Assembly (NCBI GenBank): GCA_913041535.1
Contig: CAJWJK010000003.1
Span: 90,953 to 154,952, forward strand
Length of the DNA: 64,000 nucleotides
Reading direction: 5' to 3'
Source of the DNA: an uncultured Alphaproteobacteria bacterium
GTDB taxonomy: Bacteria > Pseudomonadota > Alphaproteobacteria > VGEJ01
Shown piece after piece: positions 16,903-61,539 of this stretch. A model generated the notes under the pieces. That model made no database searches. It was not told where the DNA came from and was given only the letters and a program-made list of their open reading frames with translations. Numbering within the stretch: position 1 is the first letter of the stretch; each line of letters opens with the position of its first letter. Both the position numbers and the translations under genes were made by a program.

Positions 16903-16961
16903 TAAAATCACATCAGCTGAAAATAATAAGGTTTGGTAGTAGGTCTTCGTGGGGTTTGGCA

Positions 16962-16994
16962 AACGTAAAAGGGGCGGACCGAAGCCCGCCCCTT
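16962..16994 (-). terminator. rho-independent terminator downstream of the porin gene
   Basis: Minus-strand GGGGCGGGCTTCGGTCCGCCCC (7-bp GC stem, 8-nt loop) followed by TTTTACGTTT, 25 nt after the porin stop. Confidence 0.6.
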
Positions 16995-17017
16995 CACAAG
17001 CGTTATGAATTTTACTG

Positions 17018-18175: not shown

Positions 18176-18357
18176 CCTAACCTCACTTACAGACGCACAA
18201 AGACCCGAGCATGCCGGGCGCGCCCCTTTTAATGATGGCCTATTCAGCCAGTACAGGGGCGGACCGTCAAGCTAGGCGACTCCCGACTGTGTCGAAATTC
18301 GGTCACTGTTGCTAGATTGACACAGCAGTATGCATTCTGGTTCAAAAAACGGCGGTT

Positions 18358-46037: not shown

Positions 46038-47059
46038 TTTAGACGTTTACCACCAAGACGGATGCGGGGGTCCAGCACACTAAGAGCTATATCAGATATG
46101 AACATGCCTACCACGGTTAGAAGTGTGAGCATAAAGATCAATGCTCCAGCCAGATATTGGTCTTGCGAACGCAATGCTTGGACAAGTAGCGGGCCAAGCG
46201 TTGGTAAAGAAAGTATCATTGCAATAAGGGCTGAGCCTGAAATGAGTGTTGGAAGCAAGTTTCCGATATCGGCAATAAATGGATTCAAGGAGACTCGTAA
46301 AGGGTATTTGATCAATAGTCGCGTGGCAGGCAGTCCCTTCGCTCGACCGGTTACCACATATTGTTTCTGAAGTTCGTCCAGTAGATTAGCTCGGAGTCTT
46401 CTTATCATACCAGCTGTACCCGAGGTGCCAATAATGACTACGGGTATCCACAAGTGTTCTAGAACTGACAGGAGTTTGTCCCAGGACCATGGTTGATTAA
46501 TGTACTCAGGGGCCATCAAACCACCAATAGAGGTGCCAAAATGGACATTTGCGAAATACATTATGATGAGGGCTAGTAAGAAATTTGGAGTTGCTAATCC
46601 CAAAAACCCAACAAAACTTAAAGTGTGATCACCCCAACTGTACTGATGTGTTGCAGAATATACGCCAATGGGAAAAGCCATGATCCATGTGAACAGCACA
46701 ACGGAAAAGTTCAGTAACACAGTGAAAGCGATGTTTCCGCTAACCACTTCGCTTACCGGGCGGTCAAACTCAAAGGAATGTCCAAGGTTCCCTTGCAATA
46801 GGCCGGAGAATCCATTTGGACCTTCTAAAATACCAATCCAAACACCGTATTGCTCAACAAAAGGTCGATCTAGAGAGTATTCGTGCCGCAAGAACTCAAT
46901 TTGATCAAGAGCAGCAGTATCCCCCTGAGACCGAAGTTCTGAAATTTGATTTGAAAGGTAATCGCCGGGAGGTGCTTGAATTATCAAAAACGTCAGGAAA
47001 CTGATGATCAGAATCGTTGGGATCATGATCAATATTCTGTGTGTAAGGTACGTAAACAT
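46034..47059 (-). CDS. ABC transporter permease, YejB-like
   Basis: 341 aa; six transmembrane helices with the EAA-like loop. Confidence 0.75.
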   Translation of the reverse strand: MFTYLTHRILIMIPTILIISFLTFLIIQAPPGDYLSNQISELRSQGDTAALDQIEFLRHEYSLDRPFVEQYGVWIGILEGPNGFSGLLQGNLGHSFEFDRPVSEVVSGNIAFTVLLNFSVVLFTWIMAFPIGVYSATHQYSWGDHTLSFVGFLGLATPNFLLALIIMYFANVHFGTSIGGLMAPEYINQPWSWDKLLSVLEHLWIPVVIIGTSGTAGMIRRLRANLLDELQKQYVVTGRAKGLPATRLLIKYPLRVSLNPFIADIGNLLPTLISGSALIAMILSLPTLGPLLVQALRSQDQYLAGALIFMLTLLTVVGMFISDIALSVLDPRIRLGGKRLK

Positions 47060-47073
47060 TTCAGTTTCTGAGC

Positions 47074-49002
47074 TCAGGGAGATTCAGACGTTTCGTACCA
47101 GAAGGTATCTGGTCGGTATATTCCAAATTGTGCTCCTGGGTTCCAGTTATAAACCGCGTTACGTGGTAAATTTCGTAAGCTATTATGGACTACAACTGGC
47201 TGCATAATGCCTGATATTATGCCAATCGAGAACACTTGGTCCTTATGAATTTCCAGCATCCTATGCCAAATTGCTTCTCTCTCATCCTTGGTGGGGGTCA
47301 CAAGCCAAGCCTTATGCAGTCTTAAAAGCTCAACTGCAGGTTGCATGTCTGGAGCTTCACCAGAAGCCCCATTCGTTTCATAGTATTGGCCCCATTTGGG
47401 CCATTGGTACGCGTGTTGCCGTGTAGGGGCCAGCTCTTCTGGGCTCATTTCTGGTGTAGGCAGCCCATTTTCGATACCGGACCATATGGAAATCTGAGTT
47501 TCACCGGAAAAGATTCTGTTGCGAAAGACTTCTCGTTGGGAGGGGCGTGTATAGACCTTGATGCCAATTTCTGCCCAGTTATCACGGATCAACTCTAATA
47601 CATCTGTTTGCTCTGTATCCTCGCCAGCAGTCTCGATAATTACTTCGAATGGTCTTCCATCAGGAAGTAGTCGATGGCCGGAGTAATTGCGCTCTTTTAG
47701 CCCCACCTCATCGAGTAGTTCGTTGGCTTTACGCGGATCATACTGTGACCAATCGGTTTGATAGTGGGGCTTAAACAATGGGCTATCCGTTAGGACCGTA
47801 TTATTGCCCTCTACGGCTAGACCAAAATATAGGACTTGATTAATAAGACCTCTATCTATAGCGATCGATAAGGCACGGCGTACGCGGACATCTCGAAATA
47901 CAGTCCTCCACACAGGATCGTTAATGTTCAAGTTAGGGTATAGTGCTAGGTGGGAACCTTTCGCCGTTCGCCATAGAAGCGTAGAATAGTTGTTCCTTTT
48001 CTCGCCTTTCTTGAGAAACGTGTAGTTGTTGAAAAATAGGCTACGGGATTGGAGGTCCACTTCACCAGCACTTGCCTTTCCAGGAATGAGCTTGCTGTCG
48101 GCAATAGTTAATATGAAACGATCAATATATGGCAGTTGGCGGCCATTTTCGTCTATACGGTGATAATACGGGTTACGCTCGCCCACAAAGCGATTAGACT
48201 GGTCTGCAGTCGTGTTACGCCACGGTTGTAGTGTTGGTAAATCAGGATTATCAAATTTGTATAGGTTGTCCATGCGATTATGGAGTGATGCCCAGTTACG
48301 CTTACCTGCTGCTAATGCTCGCTCCGCAAGCCTCTCGGCACTGGCGTATTTTGAGTGAAACAGTTTCATATAATGAGCTGGTCGGTAGATGAATAGTGGT
48401 GCCGCGTGTGCAATCGCTGGCAGGAATAGAGGATTAGGAGCAGACCACGTGTAGCGGATCGTATTGACATCTATAACTTCGAAACGTGGTCGTTTCCCAT
48501 TAACCATCATTTCCTTGGGAGGACCAGAAGGCCGAAGATCTTTGTTTGTTGCGACGTCTTCCCAGTAATAGCGAAAGTCTTCACTCGTAAAAGGATGTCC
48601 GTCAGACCACTTGTGTCCAGGGCGCAGTTTGATGGTAAAGATTCGTCCTTCGTCAACTGTGATTGATTGTGCGATGTCGGGAACTATATCAAATTTAGTA
48701 TTATATCCGACTAATCTAGAGTAACCGTAGACAACAAAAAGCCGCACATCTTTGGCCCTTACGCCCAACATTCGAAGTTCTCCACCATGTTGTCCTGGCG
48801 TCAAACCGTTACCACGAAGTTTTATAACTCTAGGTGTTTCGGGAACTCGTTCGTACACTGGGGGTAGTTCCCCAGCCGCCACCTGTTTGTGGAGCATGGG
48901 TGTCTCAACCCAATCCCCCGCGGCACCATGTGTTGCTGTGGCAATCGTTATCGAAAGTAACGTGAAAATAACCAGCGAATAAAGTGTTTGGCGCGGGTTC
49001 AT
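47074..49002 (-). CDS. ABC transporter substrate-binding protein, family 5 (YejA-like)
   Basis: Signal peptide [26 protein letters not shown] and ~640-aa cluster-C SBP length; start moved to give a 4-nt overlap with the ATPase gene. Confidence 0.75.
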   Translation of the reverse strand: MNPRQTLYSLVIFTLLSITIATATHGAAGDWVETPMLHKQVAAGELPPVYERVPETPRVIKLRGNGLTPGQHGGELRMLGVRAKDVRLFVVYGYSRLVGYNTKFDIVPDIAQSITVDEGRIFTIKLRPGHKWSDGHPFTSEDFRYYWEDVATNKDLRPSGPPKEMMVNGKRPRFEVIDVNTIRYTWSAPNPLFLPAIAHAAPLFIYRPAHYMKLFHSKYASAERLAERALAAGKRNWASLHNRMDNLYKFDNPDLPTLQPWRNTTADQSNRFVGERNPYYHRIDENGRQLPYIDRFILTIADSKLIPGKASAGEVDLQSRSLFFNNYTFLKKGEKRNNYSTLLWRTAKGSHLALYPNLNINDPVWRTVFRDVRVRRALSIAIDRGLINQVLYFGLAVEGNNTVLTDSPLFKPHYQTDWSQYDPRKANELLDEVGLKERNYSGHRLLPDGRPFEVIIETAGEDTEQTDVLELIRDNWAEIGIKVYTRPSQREVFRNRIFSGETQISIWSGIENGLPTPEMSPEELAPTRQHAYQWPKWGQYYETNGASGEAPDMQPAVELLRLHKAWLVTPTKDEREAIWHRMLEIHKDQVFSIGIISGIMQPVVVHNSLRNLPRNAVYNWNPGAQFGIYRPDTFWYETSESP

Positions 49003-50879
49003 GATTCTATTTGTGGTGCCACAGATGTACGTACGAAATGACCCTCGCCAAGATCCAGCATACTTAGTGATTGGGTTCCGTCTATAGTATAGGGTGTAGG
49101 CCAATCGGCTGGGTTAGAGGCTTTGCCCGACATCAATCCGGTAAGATCAAGAGGGTCATCTGGGTCGGGCTTTGGGACGGCCGAAAGAAGTGCACGTGTA
49201 TAGGGGTGAATGGGGTTCTGAAATAATACTTCTCTTGGCGCAAGCTCGACCAAACATCCGGAGCACATGACAGCTATCCGATCGGCAATATAGTCAACTA
49301 CAGCTAGATTGTGTGATATGAAGATATAGGTCAGGGTGAGATTCGTCTGCAGCTCTTTGAGAAGATTTAGGACCTGCGCTTGCACGGACACATCAAGAGC
49401 TGATACTGGTTCATCGCAGATTAATAGTTCTGGCTGGAGTGCAAGAGCTCGGGCAATTCCTATCCGCTGACGTTGACCCCCTGAGAAACTATGGGGATAG
49501 CGTCGTCGATGTCTTACATTGAGGCCCACCAACTCCATTAACTCCGTTACGCGCTGAGCTCGGAAAGTTTCGTCACCTATTTTGTGGATAATCAGGGGTT
49601 CATTAATTATATCAAAAACAGTCATGCGGGGGTTAAGTGAGCTGAATGGGTCTTGGAAGATGTATTGGACACTTCGACGAAAATTCCATAGTTCCTTACC
49701 CTGCAATTTTAGTACGTCGATCATGTGTCCATTATCGTTAAATAGAACCTCGCCTGAATCGGCTGATAAAGCGCGCATTAAGATTTTGCTCGTTGTAGTC
49801 TTGCCACAACCTGACTCGCCCACAAGGCCAAGACAGGAGCCTCGTGGCACTTCAAAGCTAACATTATCTACAGCAATAGTGGCATCGTTGGTCTTTTTGC
49901 TAAAAAAAGAGCGTTTCCGGCCATCGAATGACTTGCTTAAGTTGCGGACGCTCAACAAAGGGCCTGCTTTGATCGCTTCGTTGCTCCAAGGTTTACTTTC
50001 TGTATGTAGGAGCTCTCCTTTACTTTTAATTTCTCGAATTGGTATGAGTCTTTCTTCTGGTTTCATGTTGAACCGAGGGACAGCAGACAATAACGCGGTC
50101 AGATATGGGTGTTGGGGATCGTGAAAAATATCGTGCAAAGAGCCATGCTCCATAACTTTGCCATGATACATAACCACGACTTCATCTGCCATGTTGGCAA
50201 CGACTCCCAGATCATGAGTGATCATCAGAATTGCCATTTGGAGCTCGCGCTGCAAGTCATTCATGAGCTTTAGAATCTGAGCTTGGATCGTCACGTCCAA
50301 TGCAGTTGTTGGTTCATCGGCAATCAAGAGAGCGGGGTTGCAGATTAGAGCCATTGCAATCATTGCTCGTTGGCGCAGCCCGCCCGAAAGCTCAAACGGA
50401 TAAGATTGTAGCGCGCTACGGGGGCTAGGGAAGCCAACTAAACGAAGCATATCTTCTGCGACATCAAGCCCTTTTTTTCGGTTTGCAACACGATGTAAAT
50501 GAAAAGCTTCTGTAATTTGGTTTCCAATAGTATGAAGTGGTGAGAGAGACGTCATCGGCTCTTGGAAGATGATAGAGATGCGCCCACCTCGCAAAGCTTG
50601 CATGTCTTTGCTATCTGGTGGCAGATTGCAGATATCAATTACAGGGCCATCCGTTGTGGGGTCACAGAAATCGATAGTGCCTTCAGCAATATGCGCTACT
50701 TTTGGTAAAATACCCATAATGGCTTGAGATACCACCGATTTTCCCGAGCCAGATTCGCCCACCAGTGCCACTGTTTTTCCCTGTGGAACTCTAAACGAAA
50801 CACCATCTACGGCACGAAGTATGCCATCTGGTAGGTCAAAATGAACTTTTAGGTTGGAAATTAGTAAAACATCAGACAT
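48999..50879 (-). CDS. ABC transporter ATP-binding protein with duplicated ATPase domains (YejF-like)
   Basis: Two Walker A motifs ([16 protein letters not shown]), two LSGG signatures ([16 protein letters not shown]), and two oligopeptide C-terminal extensions. Confidence 0.85.
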
Positions 50880-51376
50880 TAACGTCTCTCCAGGGTGCCA
50901 ATAGGTGCATCTAGCGCGTAAAGATTATCTGTTGTTGTTGAATCCAATACGATACCGCGATTACGCGCTTCACGTGCGGCTGCTAGTGCAATATCTTCAA
51001 AACCCTCTAATGAAGAGTCTAATTTAATTTGCCTTGTTCGTGGGCCCATTAGGCTAAGCTGCATCCATCCGTTCCTTCGATCACGGCGAGTTGTGTAATA
51101 TCGGAGGCGAACTCGCTCGAGTCTACACCAATCAAGCTCGGCACGAAAAAGCCCAGTGCTTTCGACTCCAGAGCTAGTTAACGCCACTGTTGTTATTTGG
51201 CGGAGAACAGTGCGTATAGCAAAGACGGTGAAAAGCAATGCTAAGAATAAAAGAATGTATGCAGTTATTGTAAATATGTCTGTTATGATTAAAGGGCCAG
51301 CCGTTAGTGACAGGCCCACACCAGCGCGAAGATAATCAAGTATCAAAGATTTGATAGGGTATCGGTGTTGAGTCAT
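50879..51376 (-). CDS. hypothetical membrane protein (2 TM + cytosolic domain)
   Basis: 165 aa; translationally coupled on both sides (4-nt and 1-nt overlaps). Confidence 0.4.
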   Translation of the reverse strand: MTQHRYPIKSLILDYLRAGVGLSLTAGPLIITDIFTITAYILLFLALLFTVFAIRTVLRQITTVALTSSGVESTGLFRAELDWCRLERVRLRYYTTRRDRRNGWMQLSLMGPRTRQIKLDSSLEGFEDIALAAAREARNRGIVLDSTTTDNLYALDAPIGTLERR

Positions 51377-52137
51377 GTCTCAACGCTAAAGATTTTGTCT
51401 GGGTGTGGCCAGATAGTGCTTTGTTCGACTGTAAGAACAGTCAGAAGTGAGTCTAAAAACTTCCAACTCGGTTCATCCATTACCAGATGATGTGTAAGCA
51501 GACCAGTTGGCTCGTTCTGGTCAACGATTCCCATTCGCCGATTAGATAAGTGCTGAACAAGGATGTGTACGCATGAATCAATTCCACGAAAATGGGGTTC
51601 TGGTTGCCAATTTAGAATGTCTACATGCACGTTGGTCTGCTGTACGCCCGTCGAAACCTCATTGATCTCTCGCGCGCCAAGAGTTGAGAGGCCGCGTACA
51701 CCTAGAGAATATAAGTGAGGGTATAGGTCGGGATTCATCCGATTCCAGGGAGGGACAAGAACTGGCAACGCAATATTGCCAAACAGAGTATCCATGGTTT
51801 CAGAACTACGTTCAATCTCCGCCAACACTTCGAATGATGGGCGATGTGAACCCCATTCAATTTTGCGTTCTCCGACGGGTGCATAATTCCGATGCAAGAA
51901 TCCATGCGTCGCTACTCTAGTTTCCGGATAAATTGATAGGTATTCAGTTAGGCGTGGGTCCGCTAGTTTTGGAATAGCAGCCAGGCATGGCGCAATATTG
52001 TGTCGCGTGACTAGATCAAAAAGGCGGTCAAGCGCAGCGGTTGGTGTCTGCACATCATCGTCACGCAACCACATGCTAGGTTGTCGGCCAACCCGTTTCC
52101 ACGCGTCAAGTTCTTGAACCAGGGCGGACCAACTCAT
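51373..52137 (-). CDS. divergent polysaccharide deacetylase (NodB-like) family protein
   Basis: WLRDDD (motif 1-like) and VATHGFLHRNY (HxxxH motif 2). Confidence 0.4.
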   Translation of the reverse strand: MSWSALVQELDAWKRVGRQPSMWLRDDDVQTPTAALDRLFDLVTRHNIAPCLAAIPKLADPRLTEYLSIYPETRVATHGFLHRNYAPVGERKIEWGSHRPSFEVLAEIERSSETMDTLFGNIALPVLVPPWNRMNPDLYPHLYSLGVRGLSTLGAREINEVSTGVQQTNVHVDILNWQPEPHFRGIDSCVHILVQHLSNRRMGIVDQNEPTGLLTHHLVMDEPSWKFLDSLLTVLTVEQSTIWPHPDKIFSVET

Positions 52138-53291
52138 TTGGGAGCACACTCCGCCCAGTCCTGAACCAACGATACGGTGGTTGCGAGCCCTGAAGTATTT
52201 AAACTGAAAGCGCAATTAGGAGTAGCGTCCATTGCATCTCGTATAGCTGATGCGAGAGATGTGGGGTTGAGGCTTGATTCTGGGACCATTTTCACAAACC
52301 CACGTTTAGCAAGTCGCGCCGTGCGGATTGTTTGTTCAGTTTCCGTTCCCTGCGAGAAAGGAACAATTACGCAACGAGCTTTGGAAACGAGAGCCTCACA
52401 CGTAGTGTTGTAGCCACCTTGACTAATTGAGAGGGCACAATGGTTTAGCAATTTTGGAAAGTCAGTACGGGCACGTTCAACAATTAGGTTTTCGTCGGAT
52501 GATTTCTGCAGAGCCTGAAAGGAGCTTTCAGACACCCCTGTTCCGACCAATACCCGCCAGAGATTGTCTTTAAGAACTGTCGATTTTCGCGCTAAAATGG
52601 CTGTTTCAAGTAGACTCAGCCCCACAGCACCGCCCCCAGCGGAAACAATTACTTCGCCTTGTGCGTGGTGGGTTTTTTCTGCCGCAGCTTGTGTCGGATC
52701 AACTGTGTACCCTGTGTAGACAAGTTGGCTCGCTATTTTATCGGCATTTACAAAGGTTTCATTAAAGGTGATGAATTTGGGATCGCCGTGGATAAGCACA
52801 TAGTCGAAGTATGATTTTATAAGTTCTACAGTTTCGTTGTTACGAATAGGGGTGCGACTGCCGCTTAGAATATCACGGACTGAAGATACGACGATAGTCC
52901 GGTGTCCACTGGATTTCACCAAATCCAATAGTGGAAGTAATTCAAACTTCATTTGACGGCGCCCAAATGGGAAAAGTTCAAGGATTACAACATCAGGCTT
53001 ATGGTTTTTCCAAACCTCCAGGAGGTGGTTGCATCTTGATCTGCGCCACGAATCATTAACTGGCTGGTTATTCATATCCACTAGAGTCGTGAAATTGTGA
53101 TCAATGGTTCGAACTGGAGATAATTGCACGAAACGGCTTGACCCAAGGTCAAGGTGGGGTAATGGCTCGCCTCCCGAAACAAGAATAACATCAAGACCGA
53201 CTTTGCTTAAGTTGCGGCTGATTAGGGCAGCCCTGTGTAGATGGCCAATGCCTAATAGGTGTTGAACGTAGAAGAGCACCTTCTTAGCCAT
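52134..53291 (-). CDS. glycosyltransferase, GT1/MurG-like fold (GxGHxxR family)
   Basis: N-terminus LFYVQHLLGIGHLHRAALISRNL; paralogous to the GT at 56367..57620. Confidence 0.55.
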   Translation of the reverse strand: MAKKVLFYVQHLLGIGHLHRAALISRNLSKVGLDVILVSGGEPLPHLDLGSSRFVQLSPVRTIDHNFTTLVDMNNQPVNDSWRRSRCNHLLEVWKNHKPDVVILELFPFGRRQMKFELLPLLDLVKSSGHRTIVVSSVRDILSGSRTPIRNNETVELIKSYFDYVLIHGDPKFITFNETFVNADKIASQLVYTGYTVDPTQAAAEKTHHAQGEVIVSAGGGAVGLSLLETAILARKSTVLKDNLWRVLVGTGVSESSFQALQKSSDENLIVERARTDFPKLLNHCALSISQGGYNTTCEALVSKARCVIVPFSQGTETEQTIRTARLAKRGFVKMVPESSLNPTSLASAIRDAMDATPNCAFSLNTSGLATTVSLVQDWAECAPK

Positions 53292-53918
53292 TTAGTCTTC
53301 ACTATCTTCAGAGTTGTAGGGATGAGCTCTGGCAGTCAGCAAGGGTACATTTAGACACTCTATCTGTGGGTGGCCGTCGGTGTTTAGAGCGAATAGGTGG
53401 AGTGAGTGCCAATCTAGTTTGAAAGGGGGGGCACCGGTAAGGTCCCAGTTTAAAGCAAGACTAAGTAATGCACGGATTACTCCTTTATGTGTTATGGCTA
53501 GAGTCGTTTCTCGTGCGGCTGCAACTTCTTTCAAGAAAGGTCTTAAGCGATCCTGAACTTCACGTGGACTCTCTCCTTCAGGGGGTTTTAGGTCGAGGCC
53601 TCGTTCCTCAGCTGCAACGAACTCTGTTCCTAGTTCCTGTCGGAGGTTTGCTATGGTTTCCCCTTCCCACAGCCCCCAGTCCATTTCTATAAGACGTATA
53701 TCAGTTTCGAATGAACAAACGTTGAGACAACGAGCAGTCTCAACAGCTCGGACAAGGGGGCTTGTCCTACAACGGACGCCAGAAAAGGTATTCGGAAGCT
53801 GCAATTTAGATAATTCCTGGCGAGCATCACTAGTAATGGAAACATCGGCTCTACCTTGTAGCCGTCTTTGAATGTTCCAATCGGTTTGGCCATGGCGGAA
53901 AAGGGCTAGTGTTGTCAT
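53292..53918 (-). CDS. histidine phosphatase family protein (phosphoglycerate-mutase-like)
   Basis: LFRHGQTDWN catalytic RHG motif. Confidence 0.75.
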   Translation of the reverse strand: MTTLALFRHGQTDWNIQRRLQGRADVSITSDARQELSKLQLPNTFSGVRCRTSPLVRAVETARCLNVCSFETDIRLIEMDWGLWEGETIANLRQELGTEFVAAEERGLDLKPPEGESPREVQDRLRPFLKEVAAARETTLAITHKGVIRALLSLALNWDLTGAPPFKLDWHSLHLFALNTDGHPQIECLNVPLLTARAHPYNSEDSED

Positions 53919-55078
53919 GGTTGGGGCTTTCGAGAAAAGGCACGCACTGTACTCAAAATACGATGCAGTCCCTGAGCTGCATTGCGGATCCCTCGCTCTG
54001 TGTGCACAAAGTGAGCACCTTGGTTTCCCATGCTTTCACGTCGTTTCTTATCTTTGAGAAGTTGCAACATTAAGTTCGCAAAACCCTCGATGTCTCCTTC
54101 GGGCGATAGGAGGCCGCTTTCATGGTCTTGGACTACATCAGGCACACCGCGGACGCGAGCGCTGACTATAGGGAGACCGGCTGCTTGTGCCTCAAGAAAG
54201 GATAAACCGTAGGCCTCGTTAACGGCTGGCCACACATAAATATCGCAGGCCGCGTAGATCAATGCCAGGTCTTCCTGTGGTAGTTTGCCGAGAAAGATTA
54301 TACGTTGATCAGGGAATTCTGAGAACGCCTCCTCAACACTCGTTCGAGCTTCCCCATCTCCAACTATGAGATGTTGCCAGTCTTCATCCAGCATTTTTCT
54401 GAGTGCCGAGGCAAGAAGCTGATATGAGGCAAGTTTGTCCCCATATCGCAGCATTCCAACCGATAACAGCCACGGCTTGTTTAATGAACATCGAAATTTT
54501 TCGTTCAAAGTCCTGCGGGCCTTCACGCGCTGTTTCCTTGTCTCTGTGAAGGGCGCGGTATCGATAAAAGGGGGAAGGTAATGGACGTGATCGCCACAAA
54601 TATTTTGATTTCGTAGAGACTGCAGGTCATGTCGGGTTAGACAGATAATAGCATCAGCTATTGTTATCGCTTTCTGTGTAGCTTCGTGACCAATTATCCA
54701 CGGGGTCGATGCACGTTTTGATGCTAGTGATGCTTCTGCAATAACGTATGGTATACCCAACTTTTGGCTTAACCGAGGACCAAGCCAATCCGGCGCGCGA
54801 TAATAGACGTGATATGTCAGCCATAATTCTGGCCTTTGATTTGGATGAAGTGATGAAAAATGTTCTTCTAGAAGAATTGCTTCTAGCTCCGCGGCTTGGC
54901 AGATTTTTTCTTGCTTGGAACCATTCGCAGAACGGTCATAGCTTCTGAATTCAGAGACAACATTAACTTCATGCCCAATAGAGTTCAGTGCGCCGATCAG
55001 CAATCGTGCCATTTGGCGATCGCCAGAGGGCGTGGGGTGGTATGGGGATTTAAGCGGCGCGTAGAAAACGATGCGCAT
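53915..55078 (-). CDS. glycosyltransferase family 4
   Basis: GT4 C-terminal EX7E-type region (…EAYGLSFLEAQAAGLPIV…). Confidence 0.75.
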   Translation of the reverse strand: MRIVFYAPLKSPYHPTPSGDRQMARLLIGALNSIGHEVNVVSEFRSYDRSANGSKQEKICQAAELEAILLEEHFSSLHPNQRPELWLTYHVYYRAPDWLGPRLSQKLGIPYVIAEASLASKRASTPWIIGHEATQKAITIADAIICLTRHDLQSLRNQNICGDHVHYLPPFIDTAPFTETRKQRVKARRTLNEKFRCSLNKPWLLSVGMLRYGDKLASYQLLASALRKMLDEDWQHLIVGDGEARTSVEEAFSEFPDQRIIFLGKLPQEDLALIYAACDIYVWPAVNEAYGLSFLEAQAAGLPIVSARVRGVPDVVQDHESGLLSPEGDIEGFANLMLQLLKDKKRRESMGNQGAHFVHTERGIRNAAQGLHRILSTVRAFSRKPQP

Positions 55079-55104
55079 GTCTGAGATAAGACCTAAGAGC
55101 TACA

Positions 55105-56361
55105 CTATGTTGTGATGCCTATAGAGGCTGTATTATGTCTAGGCAACCCAAATAGTTTAGCGATACCGTCAATTTTTTCATCCATGTGGAATTGCGCTCG
55201 AATTAGCTGTTCTCCTGCTCGTCCCATGTCTAGCCGTAGTTGCGGTTCTAGCATTAGGCGTGTCAGCGCTTGGTGCAGTGCCAGAGGGTTATTTGGAGGA
55301 ACTAATAGCCCATTAATGCCATCTTCTATCAGTTCTGGTATTGCGCCCGCAGTTGTTGCTACGCATGGAACAGACTGACTTTGCGCTTCAACTAGGACGT
55401 TTGGCAGCCCATCACGGTCTCCGTCGGCACCAATGCAGCTGGCTAATACAAATATATCTGCATCACGGTAGGCAGCTAGCACTGCATCGTGTGCAAGTGG
55501 TCCTCGCCAATCAATCTGTTTGCTAATGCCCAGGGAATGCGCCTGGTGTTTGAGCTGTTTGTCGAGAGGGCCGGCACCTATATGCACCAGCCGCCAGTGT
55601 AAGGTCTTGGGAATCTTTGCTAGTGCATCTAGTAGTATCGAATGTCCCTTTTTTTCCACTGTTCTCCCGATTGAAAGCAAAATTAGAGGATCGTTCCGGC
55701 TGCCGTGCTTTCTGGCTTTTGGAAGATGCGGGTTTGTCGAGAAGTATGAGAGGTCTATTCCGTGATAGTTGAGGTGTACACTTTCCGAAGATCCTAGACT
55801 CTTAAGGTGGGTATGTATGGATTGGTTGCAGGTCGACAACCAAGAGCACGACGCAATCTTTTCCAGTTTCTCCCAGACGGGAATTGTCCATACATCTTTA
55901 GCATGTGCCGAACAGCTCCAAGGCAACTCATTAAGTATGCTCGCATAGCGGGTCACTGATGCTGGAGTATGAAGAAAGTGAGCATGAAGCTGATCAACAT
56001 TTGAATCTAGTTCATGAGCTAGTATTAGAGCTTGACCAAAACGCCGAAGACGGCTTGAGGTAAAATCCCGCCATAAGTCACGCAGCCAGGCTCTCTGTGC
56101 TGTTTTGTACGTAGTACGATTGTGAAGAGCAGCCCAGGCTCGGACTAAGCGCAGAGGTTCTTTATGAAGATATTCGGGTAGATAGTAGATAGGGGCCTTA
56201 ATATCGCTATGAATCATGTGAGTGTATTGGTCAGTTGGTTGGCGCAGTGAATATATGCTGATGAAAAGTCCACGGCGCTCAAGCGCTCGTATTTCCTGTG
56301 CTATAAATGTTTCTGACAAGCGGGGGTAGCCTTTTAGGACAAAGGCAACGTGGCGACTCAT
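55105..56361 (-). CDS. glycosyltransferase family 4 (WcaL/colanic-acid-type)
   Basis: N-terminus VLKGYPRLSETFIAQEI is typical of WcaL-like GT4 enzymes; the C-terminus carries GLPNVLVEAQSQSVPCV. Confidence 0.7.
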   Translation of the reverse strand: MSRHVAFVLKGYPRLSETFIAQEIRALERRGLFISIYSLRQPTDQYTHMIHSDIKAPIYYLPEYLHKEPLRLVRAWAALHNRTTYKTAQRAWLRDLWRDFTSSRLRRFGQALILAHELDSNVDQLHAHFLHTPASVTRYASILNELPWSCSAHAKDVWTIPVWEKLEKIASCSWLSTCNQSIHTHLKSLGSSESVHLNYHGIDLSYFSTNPHLPKARKHGSRNDPLILLSIGRTVEKKGHSILLDALAKIPKTLHWRLVHIGAGPLDKQLKHQAHSLGISKQIDWRGPLAHDAVLAAYRDADIFVLASCIGADGDRDGLPNVLVEAQSQSVPCVATTAGAIPELIEDGINGLLVPPNNPLALHQALTRLMLEPQLRLDMGRAGEQLIRAQFHMDEKIDGIAKLFGLPRHNTASIGITT

Positions 56362-56366
56362 CTCAG

Positions 56367-57620
56367 TTATGCATGTTGGCGGTTCACGCGTAGATCAGAT
56401 TGAACGTTGGCGTGTTGACCAAGCCACGGTGAGGCTAGACGATTGACATTTGTTAAACCTTCGAGCAAACCCGGAACCACCACTTCCGAGGGTTTCCGTT
56501 GTTGTGGAAGCGCTCGGAGAGCGCTAATCATGGCTTCTACGGGCCGGCTTCCATCGTCTACTAGCATTTGAACTAAGCCTAGTTCTTGAGCTCGAGATGC
56601 CCGAATGTATTGTTCTAGCCGGGGCTTAGTTCGGGGCACAATTATTGCCTTTTTATCCAAAGATAAGATTTCGCAGAAGGTGTTGTATCCGCCCATTGCT
56701 ACGATGCCTGCAGCATTTGCTTCCAGGTTTTCAATATGAGCATCAAACGTAATTGCTTGTACTCTAGGAAGTCTCTCAGCGCGAACTAGAAATTCTTTCT
56801 GCAGCTCAGGCTGCATGAAGGGTCCTAAAACCATCAGAGCCGGATAAGGTAGTAGGGATTCTCTTTCATATGCTCGGAGCACCCAATCAATCAATTCAGC
56901 TCCGTCTCCACCACCCCCAGTTGTAACCAGCAGATATGGGCTCTGTGTCACAGGAGGTGGAGGATGGGCAACAACCGGTTTGCTTATTCTTCTCGGCAGG
57001 TAGCCCGTGTACACGATCTTAGACTTAACAATTTCTGGCAGATCGATCCCAGACAGTGGGTTGCAGATTTGAGGTAATCCATATACCCATATCTCATCGT
57101 ACAGGTCACACAAGCTCGGTATCACATTTTTGCGCGCCCATTCTGGTGCTAGAAGTGCTGGTTCGTCGAGGATATCACGTAGGCCGAGCACAAGACGACA
57201 TCCCCTTTTCTGAAGCATAGGCAAGGCATTCCTAACTTCACCACGTAGGCCGAGTGGCTCTTTATCTACAATGAATATGTCCGGATCAAATATCTTAGCC
57301 GTGTGGTGGATAATGGACGATCGAATCGACAAGGTTTCTTCAACGCCCATGTGCAGATTTAAAGGAGTGTATTCTCCATTTCGAAGTTTAATAACACCCG
57401 GAATCCGAACAAAATCTACACGCACACGAAAGTCAAAGCTGCCGATTATGGGTGAACCGGACAGAATCAGAACAGAAAGATTTTTATTTTGTTCTACCAG
57501 GTCGTGGGCAATGGTCAAACAACGGCGAAGGTGGCCAAGCCCAAAGGTATCATGACTGTATATGAGAACGCGGGGGTCTCGGCGTGGTTCTAGACTGGTA
57601 TTTTCAACCGCTTGCAACAT
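56367..57620 (-). CDS. glycosyltransferase, GT1/MurG-like fold (GxGHxxR family)
   Basis: IYSHDTFGLGHLRRCLTIAHDL; paralog of the GT at 52134..53291. Confidence 0.55.
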   Translation of the reverse strand: MLQAVENTSLEPRRDPRVLIYSHDTFGLGHLRRCLTIAHDLVEQNKNLSVLILSGSPIIGSFDFRVRVDFVRIPGVIKLRNGEYTPLNLHMGVEETLSIRSSIIHHTAKIFDPDIFIVDKEPLGLRGEVRNALPMLQKRGCRLVLGLRDILDEPALLAPEWARKNVIPSLCDLYDEIWVYGLPQICNPLSGIDLPEIVKSKIVYTGYLPRRISKPVVAHPPPPVTQSPYLLVTTGGGGDGAELIDWVLRAYERESLLPYPALMVLGPFMQPELQKEFLVRAERLPRVQAITFDAHIENLEANAAGIVAMGGYNTFCEILSLDKKAIIVPRTKPRLEQYIRASRAQELGLVQMLVDDGSRPVEAMISALRALPQQRKPSEVVVPGLLEGLTNVNRLASPWLGQHANVQSDLRVNRQHA

Positions 57621-57763: not shown

Positions 57764-60415
57764 ATGGAATCCAGCATATTTAGATTTGTACTGCGTCACA
57801 GTTTTCGCCAGCAGATTATGCTCACTTTAATGGCGGCAGCTTCTTTTCCGTTTCTTTACGCGTTTTATGAAGTGCCGAAGGCTATAGTGAATGATGCTAT
57901 CCAGGGTGGGACCACCTTTCCTGTGGAGATATTTGGCGTTGAACTTGGCCAGTTGGCATACTTGCTAGTGCTCTGTGCGCTTTTCTTATTACTCGTAGTT
58001 GTAAATCAATCATTTAAGTACTCTGTGAACGTATATAGAGGTCTAACTGGGGAGCGTATGCTTCGTCGGTTACGTTATGAGCTGTACTCACGTGTGCTGC
58101 GCTTTCCTCTACCCACTTTTCGAAAGATGTCACAGGGTGAGATCATTCCAATGATTACGGCTGAAGTAGAACCGCTAGGTGGTTTTATCGGTGATGCATT
58201 TTCTTTGCCCGCATTCCAGGGGGGGACTCTTTTCGTAATCCTTGCTTTCTTGTTTATTCAGGATCCCCTCATGGCTGGGGCAGCTGTCTCTCTGTATCCC
58301 CTACAGGTTTATGTCATTCCGAAATTACAAAGGCGCGTTAATCGATTAGGTAAGGAGCGAGTACGTTTGGTAAGACGACTATCGGACCGCATAGGGGAGA
58401 CTGTGCAAGGCGTGCCAGAAATTCGTGTTCATGACACCTCAAACTTTGCCCTGGCTCATTTTTCTCATCAATTGGGTTTAATTTTTGGCGTCCGTTATGC
58501 AATTTACCGACAAAAGTTCTTTATTAAGTTTCTCAACAATTTTATCCAGCAATTGGGGCCGTTTTTCTTTTATTCTATTGGTGGCTACCTGACTATTACG
58601 GGAAGTCTTGAGATCGGCACATTGATTGCTGCTATTGCCGCGCATAAGGATCTTGCGTCTCCTTGGAAGGAACTTTTACGCTACTACCAAATGAAAGAGG
58701 ATGCTCGGATTAAGTATGAGAATGTAGTGAGTCAGTTCGCTCCCCCTGGCATACTTGATGAGAGGTCTCAGATTGACGATTCGGATATTTCCACAAAGTT
58801 GCAAGGTGAATTAAACACGGCGAATTTGACTCTAACTGATGATCAAGAAACAAGTGTGGTTGATGGGGTGTCTTTCCGTTTTAGCCTTGATCAAAACGTT
58901 GCAATAGTGGGTGTAAATGGATCTGGTAAAGATGAGCTTACTCTACTGCTAGCCCGATTGCTGGATCCGAGTGCTGGATCTATTTCCGTTAACGGCAATG
59001 ACCTTTCTGGCATGTCTGAGACAGTGACTGGCGGGCGGATCTCTTACGTGGGCCCTCAGGGTTTTATTTTTGCTACAACTTTGGGTGAAAATCTATTTTT
59101 TGGTTTAAAGCATGTTCCGTTAATTGCTCCAGACTATGATTCTGATCAGACGATAAAAAGAGAACGCGAGGTTGCTGAGGCAGAACGTTCAGGAAACAAT
59201 AGCTTTGATATACATGCGGACTGGATCGACTATAAAGCTGCTGGCGTTGGAGACTTGGTTGCATTGCGGCAGGAAGCACTGCGGGTTCTTAAGCTTGTAG
59301 ATCTTGGGCCTGACATCTACGACCTCGGATTGAGGGGGACTATCGACCCAGATTCGCATCCCAAGGTAGCTCAGAGTATCTTAAAGGCTCGACGTGCTTT
59401 ACGCGAGCGCGTGGCCAAAGACCCCAATATGAGCTCTCTCGTGGAGACGTTTGATAGAGAAACCTATAACACCAACGCAACTGTCGGTGAGAATCTTCTT
59501 TTCGGAAATCCCGTGGGTGCAGACTTTGCGATGGATAGTCTAGCAGAGGATGAATATGTGCTTTCTGTGCTAGACCAAGCGGGATTAAAAGACACCTTGT
59601 TGTCCATTGGATACCAAGTGGCTTCTACCATGGTAGAACTGTTTGCTGACCTACCTGCTGATCACGAGTTTTTTCAGCAATTTAGTTTTATCAGTTCAGA
59701 GGATTTGCCTGAATTTCAAGGTCTTCTAGCTCGCGTCGATCGGAGCCAACTTAATTCAGTTGAGGCTGAAGATCGAATCCGATTAATGTCTCTTCCTTTT
59801 AAACTCATCACTGCGCGCCACCGTTTGGATCTAATTGATGAAGACGTTCAGGCGAAGATATTGGATGCCCGTGAAATTTTTGCTTCTAGTCTTCCCGATG
59901 AGCTTAAAGACTCTGTAGAGTTCTACGATGACGACCGATACAATAGTAAGGCAAACCTTCAAGATAATATTCTCTTTGGCAAAGTTGTATACGGAGAAGC
60001 ACACGCATCTGATAAGGTTGGGGAGTTAATCGCCGAAGTAATTAGGGAACTGGATTTGGAAGATACAGTGGGCCTTGTGGCGCTGGACTATGATGTTGGA
60101 ATCGGGGGGTCTCGTCTTTCAGGTGCCCAGAGGCAGAAACTGGCCATTGCTCGTGCAGTGCTTAAGGCGCCTGATATCTTGATTCTTTCAGAAGCAACTG
60201 CATCGCTTGATGCTGCAGCTCAATTGAGGCTCTCTCCGGCACTTATGCAAGAGTTTGGCAATAGGTGTCTAATATGGTCCCTCAATAACCCAGCACTTGC
60301 CGAAAACTTTGATCATATACTGGTTATGCATAATGGGAGAGTAGTGGAGCAGGGTTCTTATTCGGATCTAAATAAGGACAATACTCAGTTTAAGCAGTTG
60401 TTGGCAGCCGTATAG
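57764..60415 (+). CDS. atypical ABC exporter-like protein: type-I exporter TMD fused to a degenerate, expanded nucleotide-binding domain
   Basis: N-terminal ~330 aa is an ABC_membrane-type six-TM domain. The NBD has Walker A GVNGSGKDE (Ser/Thr replaced by Asp), signature LSGAQ, Walker B ILILSEATASLD (Asp replaced by Ser), and H-loop His replaced by Ser (CLIWSLNN). About 420 aa separate Walker A from the signature and contain three copies of a T(L/V)GENLxFG-like helical-subdomain segment. Confidence 0.7.
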   Translation: MESSIFRFVLRHSFRQQIMLTLMAAASFPFLYAFYEVPKAIVNDAIQGGTTFPVEIFGVELGQLAYLLVLCALFLLLVVVNQSFKYSVNVYRGLTGERMLRRLRYELYSRVLRFPLPTFRKMSQGEIIPMITAEVEPLGGFIGDAFSLPAFQGGTLFVILAFLFIQDPLMAGAAVSLYPLQVYVIPKLQRRVNRLGKERVRLVRRLSDRIGETVQGVPEIRVHDTSNFALAHFSHQLGLIFGVRYAIYRQKFFIKFLNNFIQQLGPFFFYSIGGYLTITGSLEIGTLIAAIAAHKDLASPWKELLRYYQMKEDARIKYENVVSQFAPPGILDERSQIDDSDISTKLQGELNTANLTLTDDQETSVVDGVSFRFSLDQNVAIVGVNGSGKDELTLLLARLLDPSAGSISVNGNDLSGMSETVTGGRISYVGPQGFIFATTLGENLFFGLKHVPLIAPDYDSDQTIKREREVAEAERSGNNSFDIHADWIDYKAAGVGDLVALRQEALRVLKLVDLGPDIYDLGLRGTIDPDSHPKVAQSILKARRALRERVAKDPNMSSLVETFDRETYNTNATVGENLLFGNPVGADFAMDSLAEDEYVLSVLDQAGLKDTLLSIGYQVASTMVELFADLPADHEFFQQFSFISSEDLPEFQGLLARVDRSQLNSVEAEDRIRLMSLPFKLITARHRLDLIDEDVQAKILDAREIFASSLPDELKDSVEFYDDDRYNSKANLQDNILFGKVVYGEAHASDKVGELIAEVIRELDLEDTVGLVALDYDVGIGGSRLSGAQRQKLAIARAVLKAPDILILSEATASLDAAAQLRLSPALMQEFGNRCLIWSLNNPALAENFDHILVMHNGRVVEQGSYSDLNKDNTQFKQLLAAV

Positions 60416-60434
60416 TGAAGGAAGGGATGACGAG

Positions 60435-60890
60435 GTGAGCCTTAACGAAGAAGTAGATTTATTACGGCGGGTTCCGCTTTTCAGTAATATCGAGCCCTCC
60501 AAATTAAAGTTGCTGGCATTTACTAGTGAGAGATTAACTTTCCGTGCTGGCCAGAGTTTGTGTGTACAGGGAGAGATTGGAGATGCCGCGTATGTAATTA
60601 TTGAAGGTCAGTGTGATGTCACTATAGATACGCCGAACGGTTCTCTTACACTTGCCACTGTTGGCCAAGACGACTTTGTTGGTGAAATAGCTATTCTATG
60701 TGACGTTCCCAGAACGGCGACCGTGACTGCAACAGACGAGGTGACGGTACTAAAAATATCCAAAGATCTATTTCTTCGTATGATTAGTGAATTTCCACAA
60801 ATGGGAGTGGAGGTAATGCGTGAATTGGCTGCGCGTCTCGAACGAACCACTATTCAGTTGAGAGAAGCGCGTATTGCTGCCTCCACCTGA
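60435..60890 (+). CDS. stand-alone cyclic-nucleotide-binding (CAP effector) domain protein
   Basis: LRRVPLFSNIEP...FVGEIAIL...PRTATVTATDEVTVL is a canonical cNMP-binding fold. It has no HTH or other output domain and lies 19 nt downstream of the ABC-like gene. Confidence 0.75.
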   Translation: MSLNEEVDLLRRVPLFSNIEPSKLKLLAFTSERLTFRAGQSLCVQGEIGDAAYVIIEGQCDVTIDTPNGSLTLATVGQDDFVGEIAILCDVPRTATVTATDEVTVLKISKDLFLRMISEFPQMGVEVMRELAARLERTTIQLREARIAAST

Positions 60891-60908: not shown

Positions 60909-61418
60909 TTGGTCATGAGTCGCTTAGATAGCTTCATCCGTCGGGTGCTGGCGCAGCGTGACTGTCTAAGTGCGGCAGCGACGATGATTGATAATCTCCC
61001 GGGTCCTATTCTGGAATTGGGTTTGGGAAATGGTCGAACATATGACCATTTACGCGAATGCCTTCCGGATAGAGAAATATTTGTCTTTGATCGTCAGGTT
61101 GCTGCTCATCCTAAATGTATTCCCGATGAAAAACATATGATTATTGGTGATATTAGAAGGACACTTCCTGGTATTCTTGCTAAGATTGGTGCTCCGGCAG
61201 TTCTCACGCATTGCGATATTGGGACAGGTGACAAAAATGCATCCCTGGAGCTGGCAGAATGGCTTGGGGGAGCTTTAAAGCCTTTGCTTGCACCGGGCGC
61301 TATAGTTGTTTCAGACCAGAAGATATTAGTTCCGGGCTGGATTCCACTACCGCTTCCGAGTGGTGTTCCCAATGACCGCTATTTTATGGCACGGGTAGAA
61401 ATTACAAAAGTGGCATGA
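60909..61418 (+). CDS. small putative SAM-dependent methyltransferase-like protein
   Basis: ILELGLGNGRTYDHL resembles SAM motif I; 169 aa; weak assignment. Confidence 0.35.
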   Translation: MVMSRLDSFIRRVLAQRDCLSAAATMIDNLPGPILELGLGNGRTYDHLRECLPDREIFVFDRQVAAHPKCIPDEKHMIIGDIRRTLPGILAKIGAPAVLTHCDIGTGDKNASLELAEWLGGALKPLLAPGAIVVSDQKILVPGWIPLPLPSGVPNDRYFMARVEITKVA

Positions 61419-61434
61419 CAGGCTTTGTAGAGGA

Positions 61435-61453
61435 GGGAAAACGCATTTTTCCC
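61435..61453 (+). terminator. putative intrinsic terminator after the ABC-like/cNMP/MTase unit
   Basis: GGGAAAAcgcaTTTTTCCC hairpin 17 nt after the stop, followed by a U-rich stretch. Confidence 0.35.
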
Positions 61454-61539
61454 TGGCTTCTTGTCGTCGACTCTAGTTCGACGCGGACGTTAAAGTCGTT
61501 GATCGCATAAGTGAGAAAACTAAGGACTACGGATTGTAG

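What the first reader, a model, noticed from the sequence alone, without database searches (positions are those of the whole stretch)
60435..60890. Stand-alone cNMP-binding domain protein apparently translationally coupled to the degenerate ABC exporter
A 151-aa protein made only of a CAP-type cyclic-nucleotide-binding domain, with no HTH, starts 19 nt after the ABC-like gene. It is followed by a small methyltransferase-like gene and a hairpin terminator, so the three genes form one transcription unit. A diffusible cNMP sensor paired with an ATPase-dead ABC exporter suggests a cyclic-nucleotide-gated export or signalling module, by analogy with bacteriocin exporters that carry fused cNMP domains. 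Here the two parts are split into separate genes and sit in a glycan-synthesis context.
Basis: partly seen in the sequence, partly recalled or inferred. Interest (0 to 1): 0.65.

Follow-up and report, generated by a model that had tools for sequence, protein, structure and literature searches.

The report
Detached cyclic-nucleotide sensor of an ABC-like protein
This small gene encodes a cyclic-nucleotide-binding domain that, in related bacteria, is fused to the end of the neighbouring ABC-transporter-like protein, so the two almost certainly work together in a widespread but unstudied sugar-building gene cluster of marine and soil alphaproteobacteria.

Summary
60435-60890(+) is a real 151-aa gene containing only a cNMP-binding domain with an intact phosphate-binding cassette. 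It starts 19 nt after an 883-aa ABC exporter-fold gene and is followed by a PF12692 methyltransferase gene.

It is not a truncated CRP. Thousands of ~150-aa orthologues (60-99% identity) exist in alphaproteobacteria. In 66 of 69 informative genomes the ABC gene lies directly upstream.

The strongest evidence is gene fusion. About 100 protein clusters from a sister clade carry the same ABC protein, including its unusual ~320-aa NBD insertion, fused through a disordered linker to this CNB domain. These are ~1030 aa, matching 883+151, or ~1190 aa with an added catalytically degenerate GGDEF domain. They sit in the same glycosyltransferase/phosphatase/peptide-type-importer locus.

The ATPase motifs are degenerate across the family: no A-loop aromatic, no Walker A Ser/Thr, no Walker B Asp.

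Best reading: the gene is the detached cNMP-sensing regulatory subunit of a probably hydrolysis-deficient ABC-like membrane protein serving an unknown glycoconjugate pathway. Ligand identity, physical docking and transport remain inferred. The translational coupling and terminator claims are weak. I found no literature on the system.

The parts
60435..60890 (+). 151-aa stand-alone cyclic-nucleotide-binding (CNB) protein: beta-barrel plus a long C-terminal helix, with no DNA-binding domain
   Evidence: ORF. PF00027 is the only Pfam domain. Orthologue alignment A1 has 76% mean column identity. Best PDB sequence matches are the CNB domains of PKG and PKA-RI.
60681..60731 (+). Phosphate-binding cassette GEIAILCDVPRTATVTA (residues 83-99)
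   Evidence: G83, E84, R93, T94 and A95 are invariant in 28 orthologues. G, E and R are invariant in 109 of 109 split and fused CNBs.
60418..60427 (+). Shine-Dalgarno-like GAAGGAAGGG inside the 19-nt ABC-cNMP spacer
   Evidence: Read from the sequence.
57764..60415 (+). 883-aa type IV ABC exporter-fold half-transporter with degenerate nucleotide-binding motifs
   Evidence: PF00664 plus split PF00005. All NCBIfam hits are far below their cutoffs. PDB alignment to ABCB1/ABCB4/TM288. Motif degeneracy is family-wide.
59117..60088 (+). ~320-aa insertion in the NBD between the Q-loop and the ABC signature. It is built from duplicated copies of the post-Q-loop unit (..YNxxAxxxENLLFG..).
   Evidence: Gap in the PDB and Pfam alignments. 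AF2 pLDDT 89.5. No Foldseek match in the PDB. hhalign of residues 561-720 against 721-800 gives probability 95.5%.
60909..61418 (+). PF12692 (Methyltransf_17) small SAM-methyltransferase-like gene; the likely true start is the ATG at 60915
   Evidence: Present downstream of the cNMP gene in 67 of 81 loci, often with a start/stop overlap.
61434..61454 (+). 8-bp hairpin after the methyltransferase gene (possible weak terminator)
   Evidence: Not more stable than shuffled sequence (z = -0.89).
56367..57620 (-). GT-B glycosyltransferase with a GT28 C-terminal-like domain (GT28b), divergent from the ABC gene; the most conserved gene of the locus (58-72% identity)
52134..56361 (-). GT4 glycosyltransferase (55105-56361), GT4 glycosyltransferase (53915-55078), histidine phosphatase (53292-53918) and a second GT28-like glycosyltransferase (52134-53291)
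   Evidence: Syntenic in nearly all loci.
44862..52215 (-). Conserved tail of the locus: a 280-aa protein with a faint DUF2334 match, a 165-aa protein with no Pfam match, and a Gsi/Yej/Opp-type importer (fused double ATPase, SBP_bac_5, two permeases)
   Evidence: The same genes follow the fused ABC-CNB gene in L086, L088, L090 and L091.

Best explanation
The 151-aa protein is the detached C-terminal regulatory domain of the adjacent ABC exporter-fold protein.

Shown:
- It is a conserved, stand-alone CNB domain with every phosphate-binding-cassette residue intact.
- It is almost always encoded directly after this particular ABC family.
- In a sister clade the same CNB is covalently fused to the C-terminus of the same ABC protein.

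Inferred:
- It binds cAMP or cGMP.
- It dimerises through its long C-helix, as CRP-type C-helices and the stalk helices that precede GGDEF domains do.
- It docks on the NBD region of the homodimeric ABC protein and transmits cNMP occupancy to the NBD/TMD conformation. This is the logic by which the C-terminal regulatory domains of MalK, MetN and ModC control NBD closure.
- The NBD lacks the A-loop aromatic, the Walker A Ser/Thr and the Walker B Asp across the family. The membrane protein therefore probably does not work as a normal ATP-driven pump. It more likely acts as a ligand-controlled flippase, conduit or membrane scaffold for the product of the adjacent four-glycosyltransferase/phosphatase cluster, whose chemistry is unknown.
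For: - CNB-only architecture is a family trait. Thousands of ~150-aa homologues exist, and the alignment has 76% mean column identity.
- The PBC residues G, E and R are invariant in 109 of 109 split and fused domains, and the residue after R is T or S in 108 of 109.
- Synteny: the ABC stop codon lies 11-110 nt upstream of the cNMP start in 66 of 69 informative species genomes. Three of three ABC-centred look-ups show the cNMP gene downstream, as do Oceanibacterium and other long contigs.
- Rosetta-stone fusions: P0327 has the NBD with the family insertion (43% identity to window residues 352-863), then a linker, then a CNB (45% identity), then GGDEF. About 100 clusters are fused: 18 of ~1000-1100 aa (mostly 1021-1047, including one 1057-aa N-truncated GGDEF form) and 80 of ~1150-1206 aa.
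- The fused genes are single ORFs seen on many contigs, and they sit in the same GT/phosphatase/importer locus.
- Split forms make one clean clade in a neighbour-joining tree of the ABC part: 41 of 41 split against 0 of 101 fused.
- The AF2 model of fused P0421 shows folded TMD, NBD, insertion and CNB, a disordered 22-residue linker and a 30-residue terminal helix.
- Motif degeneracy is family-wide.
Against: - No direct evidence exists for cNMP binding, for physical contact, or for loss of ATPase activity.
- Complex modelling could not be run. The model of the fused protein gives no interface information.
- In L022 and L062 the ABC gene is cleanly absent while cNMP-MT17 stays next to the glycosyltransferase gene. 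L015 has the cNMP gene with none of the cluster. The CNB protein can therefore persist without this ABC partner nearby.
- The cNMP-to-methyltransferase junction is tighter than the ABC-to-cNMP junction in many genomes, with overlaps of -10 to -3 nt in 12 loci. This hints at a second partner.
- Walker A Lys, the Walker B Glu and the LSxxQ signature are mostly retained, so some nucleotide binding or slow hydrolysis is not excluded.
- One fused paralogue (L085) lies outside any glycosyltransferase cluster.
Confidence: 0.62

Rival explanations
1. The CNB protein is a soluble cNMP sensor whose real targets are other products of the locus, such as the PF12692 methyltransferase or the glycosyltransferases. 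The ABC gene is only an operon neighbour.
For: - The cNMP and MT17 genes overlap or abut in many genomes, with gaps of -10 to +4 nt in 22 of 67 loci.
- L022 and L062 keep GT28b, cNMP and MT17 together but lack the ABC gene.
- L079 has MT17 copies on both sides of the cNMP gene.
Against: - About 100 clusters fuse the CNB to the ABC protein. No genuine fusion of the CNB to a methyltransferase or glycosyltransferase appeared among the best 150 representatives. The few odd chimeras, such as P0309 and P0383, look like read-through gene calls.
- MT17 is missing in 14 of 81 loci and from all fused-clade loci examined.
Confidence: 0.2
2. The CNB domain no longer senses cAMP or cGMP. It serves as a constitutive structural or dimerisation subunit, or binds a different ligand. 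This would parallel the catalytically dead NBD and GGDEF modules it travels with.
For: - It sits among degenerate modules. The NBD motifs are degenerate, and the GGDEF motif is absent in 80 of 80 fused proteins.
- No cyclase gene was found among the window genes I annotated. Only part of the window was scanned.
Against: The cassette residues that contact the ribose and phosphate (G, E, R, T/S, A) are invariant or nearly invariant across split and fused clades that share only ~45% identity. That pattern is expected only under selection for cNMP binding.
Confidence: 0.12
3. The gene is a truncated or frameshifted CRP/FNR-type transcription factor, or a chance ORF.
For: NCBIfam gives weak partial matches to CRP and FtrB over the CNB part only (46.9 bits against a cutoff of 266).
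Against: - All close homologues are 143-160 aa and contain PF00027 only.
- The stop codon position is conserved, and the next gene is a methyltransferase in another frame.
- Fused relatives continue into GGDEF and never into an HTH.
Confidence: 0.01

Closest known systems
CRP/FNR (CAP) family regulators
   Same: CNB beta-barrel followed by a long C-helix that forms the dimer interface in CAP. The cassette has the conserved Gly, Glu and Arg.
   Different: It has no helix-turn-helix domain and scores far below every CRP/FNR model cutoff. Its partner is a membrane ABC-like protein, not DNA.
   Same: A cNMP-binding domain is associated with a type IV ABC exporter.
   Different: It is not a member: 31.9 bits against a cutoff of 161, and 137 bits against 709. 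Here the CNB is C-terminal to the NBD or detached, the NBD is degenerate and carries a 320-aa insertion, and the context is glycosyltransferases, not peptide precursors.
C-terminal regulatory domains of ABC ATPases (MalK TOBE-like domain, MetN C2 domain, ModC, OpuAA CBS domains); comparison from general knowledge
   Same: A ligand-binding, dimerising domain attached to the NBD C-terminus controls NBD closure. The position matches the CNB in the fused relatives.
   Different: The fold and ligand differ. Those systems are importers with active ATPases. Here the domain is encoded as a separate gene, and the NBD is probably inactive.
CFTR and SUR: ABC proteins used as a gated channel or a regulator (from general knowledge)
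   Same: An ABC exporter fold with degenerate nucleotide sites is put to work for gating or regulation under cyclic-nucleotide-dependent control.
   Different: In CFTR only one site is degenerate, and cAMP acts indirectly through PKA phosphorylation. There is no homology beyond the ABC fold.
MsbA, PglK and HepA-type lipid or lipid-linked-glycan ABC exporters
   Same: These are the best-scoring named ABC families (MsbA 189 bits, HepA 167 bits). The fold is the same (BmrA and TmrAB TM-score 0.56-0.58), and the gene is adjacent to glycosyltransferases.
   Different: Scores are far below the cutoffs of 602 and 725. The catalytic motifs are degenerate, and the NBD insertion and CNB partner are absent from those families.
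Bacterial cNMP-gated channels MloK1 and SthK
   Same: A CNB domain lies C-terminal to a membrane transport domain. Both are sequence-detectable relatives (E about 1e-11 to 1e-12).
   Different: The membrane module is an ABC exporter fold, not a tetrameric K+ channel.

Membership tests
PF00027 cNMP_binding domain superfamily | Match to the domain model above the gathering score | tested here: met
   75.6 bits against 27.5, residues 35-119.
PF00027 cNMP_binding domain superfamily | Phosphate-binding cassette with Gly-Glu ... Arg-[Ser/Thr]-Ala | tested here: met
   The cassette reads GEIAILCDVPRTATV. These residues are invariant in orthologues and fused relatives.
PF00027 cNMP_binding domain superfamily | Actual binding of cAMP or cGMP | not testable with these tools
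   This needs ITC, DRaCALA or a ligand-aware structure prediction.
CRP/FNR transcription factors | C-terminal helix-turn-helix DNA-binding domain | tested here: not met
   There is no HTH in Pfam or NCBIfam. The protein ends after the C-helix, and this is family-wide.
TIGR03896 bacteriocin-type transport-associated CNB protein | Score above the model cutoff and two-domain length (~317 aa) | tested here: not met
   31.9 bits against 161. The match is partial, to profile positions 139-249.
ABC type IV exporters (PF00664 + PF00005) | Six-helix ABC_membrane domain followed by an NBD | tested here: met
   PF00664 scores 66.6 bits and PF00005 scores 71.9 bits. The fold of the fused homologue matches BmrA and TmrAB.
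ABC type IV exporters (PF00664 + PF00005) | Canonical catalytic motifs: A-loop aromatic, Walker A GxxGxGK[ST], Walker B hhhhDE, H-loop His | tested here: not met
   The window protein has LTLT, GVNGSGKD, ILILSE and WSLNN at these positions. Replacement of the A-loop aromatic, Walker A S/T and Walker B Asp is family-wide, while the H-loop His is kept in 25 of 40 split homologues and in none of 101 fused ones.
MsbA (TIGR02203) and HepA (NF045513) equivalogs | Score above the equivalog cutoff | tested here: not met
   189 bits against 602, and 167 bits against 725.
Fused ABC-CNB(-GGDEF) family of Rhodospirillales-type alphaproteobacteria (unnamed; defined here) | ABC protein with the ~320-aa duplicated-subdomain insertion, followed by a CNB with PRTAT cassette, in the GT28-GT4-GT4-HisPhos-GT28 locus | tested here: met
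   The window pair equals the fused architecture cut at the linker (883+151 against ~1034 aa). ABC identity is 43-49% and CNB identity 45-47%, and the neighbours are the same.

The most novel reading that the evidence does not exclude
This is a large, uncharacterised family of homodimeric ABC exporter-fold proteins. Both nucleotide sites have been disabled, and the helical subdomain has been triplicated. Control has been handed to a cyclic-nucleotide sensor, which is either fused or, as here, a separate subunit. The result would be a cNMP-gated conduit, flippase or membrane signal transducer rather than an ATP-driven pump. It would be a bacterial functional analogue of CFTR or SUR, governing a conserved alphaproteobacterial glycoconjugate pathway that is linked to a peptide-type importer.
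Probability: 0.25. Interest if true: 0.8.

Novelty: new variant of a known kind. Interest (0 to 1): 0.6.

Why it matters
If correct, this defines a second-messenger-controlled ABC-like membrane machine with no experimental precedent in my literature searches. It is present in at least ~590 species-level alphaproteobacterial genomes, mainly Rhodospirillales-type lineages and some Hyphomicrobiales, and is common in marine metagenomes.

It would give cAMP/cGMP signalling in alphaproteobacteria a non-transcriptional membrane target. It would provide a natural split/fused pair for studying how a C-terminal sensor domain controls an ABC dimer. It would also flag a conserved 12-13-gene glycosyltransferase/phosphatase/importer locus whose product is unknown.

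The family-wide loss of catalytic NBD residues in what appears to be a homodimeric half-transporter is unusual for ABC biology.

Tried and rejected
- Complex modelling: I built a 24-row paired alignment of NBD, Gly-Ser linker and CNB. I modelled a natural fusion (P0421) instead, but the output gives no contact or PAE data, so docking could not be judged.
- Literature: seven full-text searches and one paper check found no description of the pair, the fused family or the locus.
- Rfam: no RNA family anywhere in the window.
- Promoter scan: no sigma-70-like site on the + strand upstream of the ABC gene.
- Functional hints for the glycosyltransferases: GT28b has no PDB sequence relative. GT4a resembles BshA, MshA and PimB only generically. 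No product could be assigned.
- Truncated-CRP and pseudogene reading: rejected on family-wide architecture.
- Bacteriocin-exporter membership: rejected on model scores.
- cAMP versus cGMP: the Arg-Thr pair in the cassette is shared with cGMP-selective PKG and CNG sites, but also with cAMP-binding HCN (my own knowledge). The best PDB hits are PKG and PKA-RI alike. Ligand specificity is left undecided.

Full report
**1. What is at the coordinates**

The ORF 60435-60890(+) encodes 151 aa from a GTG start. The start is fixed by homology. The N-terminus MSLNEEV... aligns residue for residue with orthologues, most of which start with ATG at that position. Pfam finds only PF00027 cNMP_binding (residues 35-119, 75.6 bits against a cutoff of 27.5). 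NCBIfam gives only partial, sub-threshold hits to CRP, FtrB, Pat and TIGR03896 over the CNB part.

The phosphate-binding cassette GEIAILCDVPRTATV is canonical. The best PDB sequence relatives are CNB domains of PKG and PKA-RI, followed by CRPs, Epac, MloK1 and SthK.

The upstream gene 57764-60415 ends with TAG 19 nt before the GTG, and the spacer contains GAAGGAAGGG. The downstream ORF 60909-61418 is PF12692 Methyltransf_17 (PDB 3iht 2e-39). An 8-bp hairpin lies at 61434-61454, but it is no more stable than shuffled sequence (z = -0.89).

The terminator and 'translational coupling' are the weak parts.

**2. It is a family, not a broken CRP**

A word-indexed search returned 7346 homologues. The best 120 are all 148-160 aa, contain PF00027 only, are 66-99% identical, and are labelled Alphaproteobacteria where named. 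A 28-sequence alignment has 76% mean column identity, with G83, E84, R93, T94 and A95 invariant.

The exhaustive representative search found 183 representatives at E<1e-30. The single-domain ones are ~145-160 aa. The refutation criterion 'a downstream DNA-binding domain interrupted by a frameshift' is therefore not met.

**3. Synteny**

A scan of one genome per species found at least 590 relatives, and 80 loci were fetched. tblastn of the window's proteins against these loci gave the following results.
- In 66 of 69 loci with enough upstream sequence, the ABC gene ends 11-110 nt before the cNMP start in most cases (median 28 nt, four outliers of 260-740 nt, never overlapping).
- The methyltransferase follows in 67 of 81 loci, often overlapping the cNMP stop codon.
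- The divergent block GT28b-GT4b-GT4a-HisPhos-GT28a is present in nearly every locus long enough to show it.

Look-ups starting from the ABC protein gave the same picture in 3 of 3 cases, as did Oceanibacterium hippocampi and long metagenomic contigs.

There are exceptions. L062 and L022 lack the ABC gene cleanly, with GT28b directly beside cNMP-MT17. L015 has the cNMP gene in another context. In L007 only fragmentary ABC hits were found upstream of the cNMP gene; I did not examine why.

**4. The partner ABC protein is unusual**

It has an ABC_membrane domain and an NBD whose Pfam match is split in two. Alignment to ABCB1, ABCB4 and TM288 shows residues ~452-775 inserted between the Q-loop and the signature motif.

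The motifs in the window protein are:
- Walker A is GVNGSGKD, with no Ser/Thr after the Lys.
- Walker B is ILILSE, with the Asp replaced.
- The A-loop aromatic is replaced.
- The H-loop His is absent.

Across 40 split and 101 fused homologues, the A-loop, Walker A S/T and Walker B Asp replacements are the rule. The Walker A Lys is itself lost in about a quarter to a third of sequences. The Walker B Glu and the LSxxQ signature are mostly kept.

The insertion folds confidently on its own (AF2 pLDDT 89.5) and has no Foldseek match in the PDB. It contains internal copies of the post-Q-loop unit (ENLFFG at 442, ENLLFG at 576, DNILFG at 734). hhalign of residues 561-720 against 721-800 gives 95.5% probability. 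This suggests, though I did not test it further, that the helical subdomain has been multiplied.

No NCBIfam exporter model comes near its cutoff (MsbA 189 against 602).

**5. Rosetta-stone fusions (the key result)**

Among the representative hits to the CNB protein, P0327 and P0342 carry an N-terminal ABC NBD, and P0362 carries CNB plus GGDEF only. P0327 aligns with window ABC residues 352-863 at 43% identity, straight through the insertion. It then continues through an acidic linker into a CNB 45% identical to the window protein.

Searching with P0327 returned about 100 clusters of full-length fusions in the top 120:
- ABC_membrane + ABC_tran + cNMP_binding, mostly 1021-1047 aa (18 clusters of 1000-1100 aa, one of them a 1057-aa N-truncated GGDEF form).
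- The same plus a GGDEF domain, ~1150-1206 aa (80 clusters).

The window's 883 + 151 = 1034 aa matches the shorter fused form. The GGDEF motif is degenerate in 80 of 80. The cassette residues G, E and R are invariant in 109 of 109 split and fused CNBs.

The fused genes are single ORFs seen on many independent contigs. In four independent contexts they sit in the same locus, co-directionally: GT28b-GT4b-GT4a-HisPhos-GT28a-[ABC-CNB(-GGDEF)]-small protein-fused double ATPase-SBP_bac_5-two permeases. The window contains all of these genes at 44862-57620(-). It differs only in that ABC/cNMP/MT17 lie on the divergent side of GT28b.

One fused paralogue (L085) lies after a two-component system, without glycosyltransferases.

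In a neighbour-joining tree of the ABC part, the sampled split forms are one clean clade (41 of 41 against 0 of 101). GGDEF-less fusions are scattered. This is consistent with a single fission event and several GGDEF losses. The tree is unrooted, so the direction is inferred.

**6. Structure of a fused relative**

AF2 on P0421 (1034 aa, 124-row alignment) gave pLDDT 83.3 and pTM 0.71. It shows folded TMD, NBD, insertion and CNB, a disordered linker (residues 864-885) and a 30-residue terminal helix. Foldseek places the fold with BmrA, TmrAB and TM287/288 (TM-score 0.56-0.58).

The tool gives no contact information, so CNB docking remains untested.

**7. Mechanism**

Shown:
- The CNB domain is intact.
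- It is obligately linked to this ABC family, by gene order in one clade and by covalent fusion in the other.
- The NBD is degenerate across the family.
- The glycosyltransferase/phosphatase/importer neighbourhood is conserved.

Inferred from knowledge of CAP, GGDEF stalk helices and the regulatory domains of MalK, MetN and ModC:
- The CNB protein binds cAMP or cGMP and dimerises through its C-helix.
- It sits at the NBD C-termini of the ABC homodimer.
- It couples cNMP occupancy to NBD/TMD conformation. This would gate a flippase, conduit or scaffold that serves the glycosyltransferase products, rather than modulating a conventional ATP-driven pump.

The ligand is undecided. The Arg-Thr pair is compatible with cGMP, as in PKG and CNG sites, and with cAMP, as in HCN (my own knowledge).

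The main rival is that the CNB protein also, or instead, acts on the methyltransferase or the glycosyltransferases. This rests on the two ABC-less loci and on the tight cNMP-MT17 junctions.

**8. Comparison and novelty**

The protein is not a CRP/FNR member, because it has no HTH. The ABC protein is not MsbA, HepA or PglK.

It works most like a C-terminal regulatory domain of an ABC ATPase. Conceptually it resembles CFTR or SUR-type repurposed ABC proteins, or MloK1 and SthK-type CNB-gated membrane proteins.

Seven literature searches and one targeted paper check found no description of it. I rate it a new variant of a known kind, namely a ligand-regulated ABC protein. It is widespread and uncharacterised, with a moderate chance of being something mechanistically new.

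Noticed in passing
window 59117-60088 (ABC residues ~452-775): The NBD carries a ~320-aa insertion made of repeated copies of the post-Q-loop segment (ENLFFG, ENLLFG, DNILFG). It folds confidently on its own (pLDDT 89.5) and has no Foldseek match in the PDB. This suggests that the ABC helical subdomain has been multiplied.
   Followed up: partly
P0391-P0508; loci L086-L091: The sister clade has ABC-CNB fused to a GGDEF domain whose GG[DE]EF motif is absent in 80 of 80 proteins. These proteins therefore combine a degenerate NBD, an intact CNB and a dead GGDEF domain.
   Followed up: partly
window 44862-52215 (-); L086, L088, L090, L091: A Gsi/Yej/Opp-type importer (fused double ATPase, long SBP_bac_5, two permeases), a ~165-aa protein with no Pfam match and a 280-aa protein with a faint DUF2334 match are conserved next to the glycosyltransferase cluster in both the split and fused clades. 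This suggests a 12-13-gene functional unit.
   Followed up: partly
L022 1-1800; L062 6600-9100: In two MAG loci the ABC gene is cleanly missing, and GT28b sits directly beside cNMP-MT17.
   Followed up: partly
L079 9481-10971: Methyltransf_17 copies lie on both sides of the cNMP gene, one of them between the ABC and cNMP genes.
   Followed up: no
genome loci L005-L084: The cNMP stop codon and the methyltransferase start overlap by 3-10 nt in 12 loci and lie within 4 nt in about 10 more. This is tighter than the ABC-cNMP junction, which never overlaps.
   Followed up: partly
L088 18645-20217; L090 19425-20279; L091 19163-21260: In the fused-clade loci, which lack PF12692, PF13578 (Methyltransf_24) genes lie just past the importer. 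A small methyltransferase may be a recurring component of the locus.
   Followed up: no
L085 6682-12102: A fused ABC-CNB paralogue (42% identity to the P0327 query; 43% to the window ABC) follows an OmpR-type response regulator and a histidine kinase, with no glycosyltransferases nearby.
   Followed up: no
window 14253-20163 (-): An APS-kinase-domain protein (555 aa), a porin and a TPR-plus-sulfotransferase protein (601 aa) lie close together. This may be a sulfation module unrelated to the finding.
   Followed up: no
L003 9070-10428: An IS-type DDE transposase is inserted just downstream of the methyltransferase gene in one otherwise identical genome locus.
   Followed up: no
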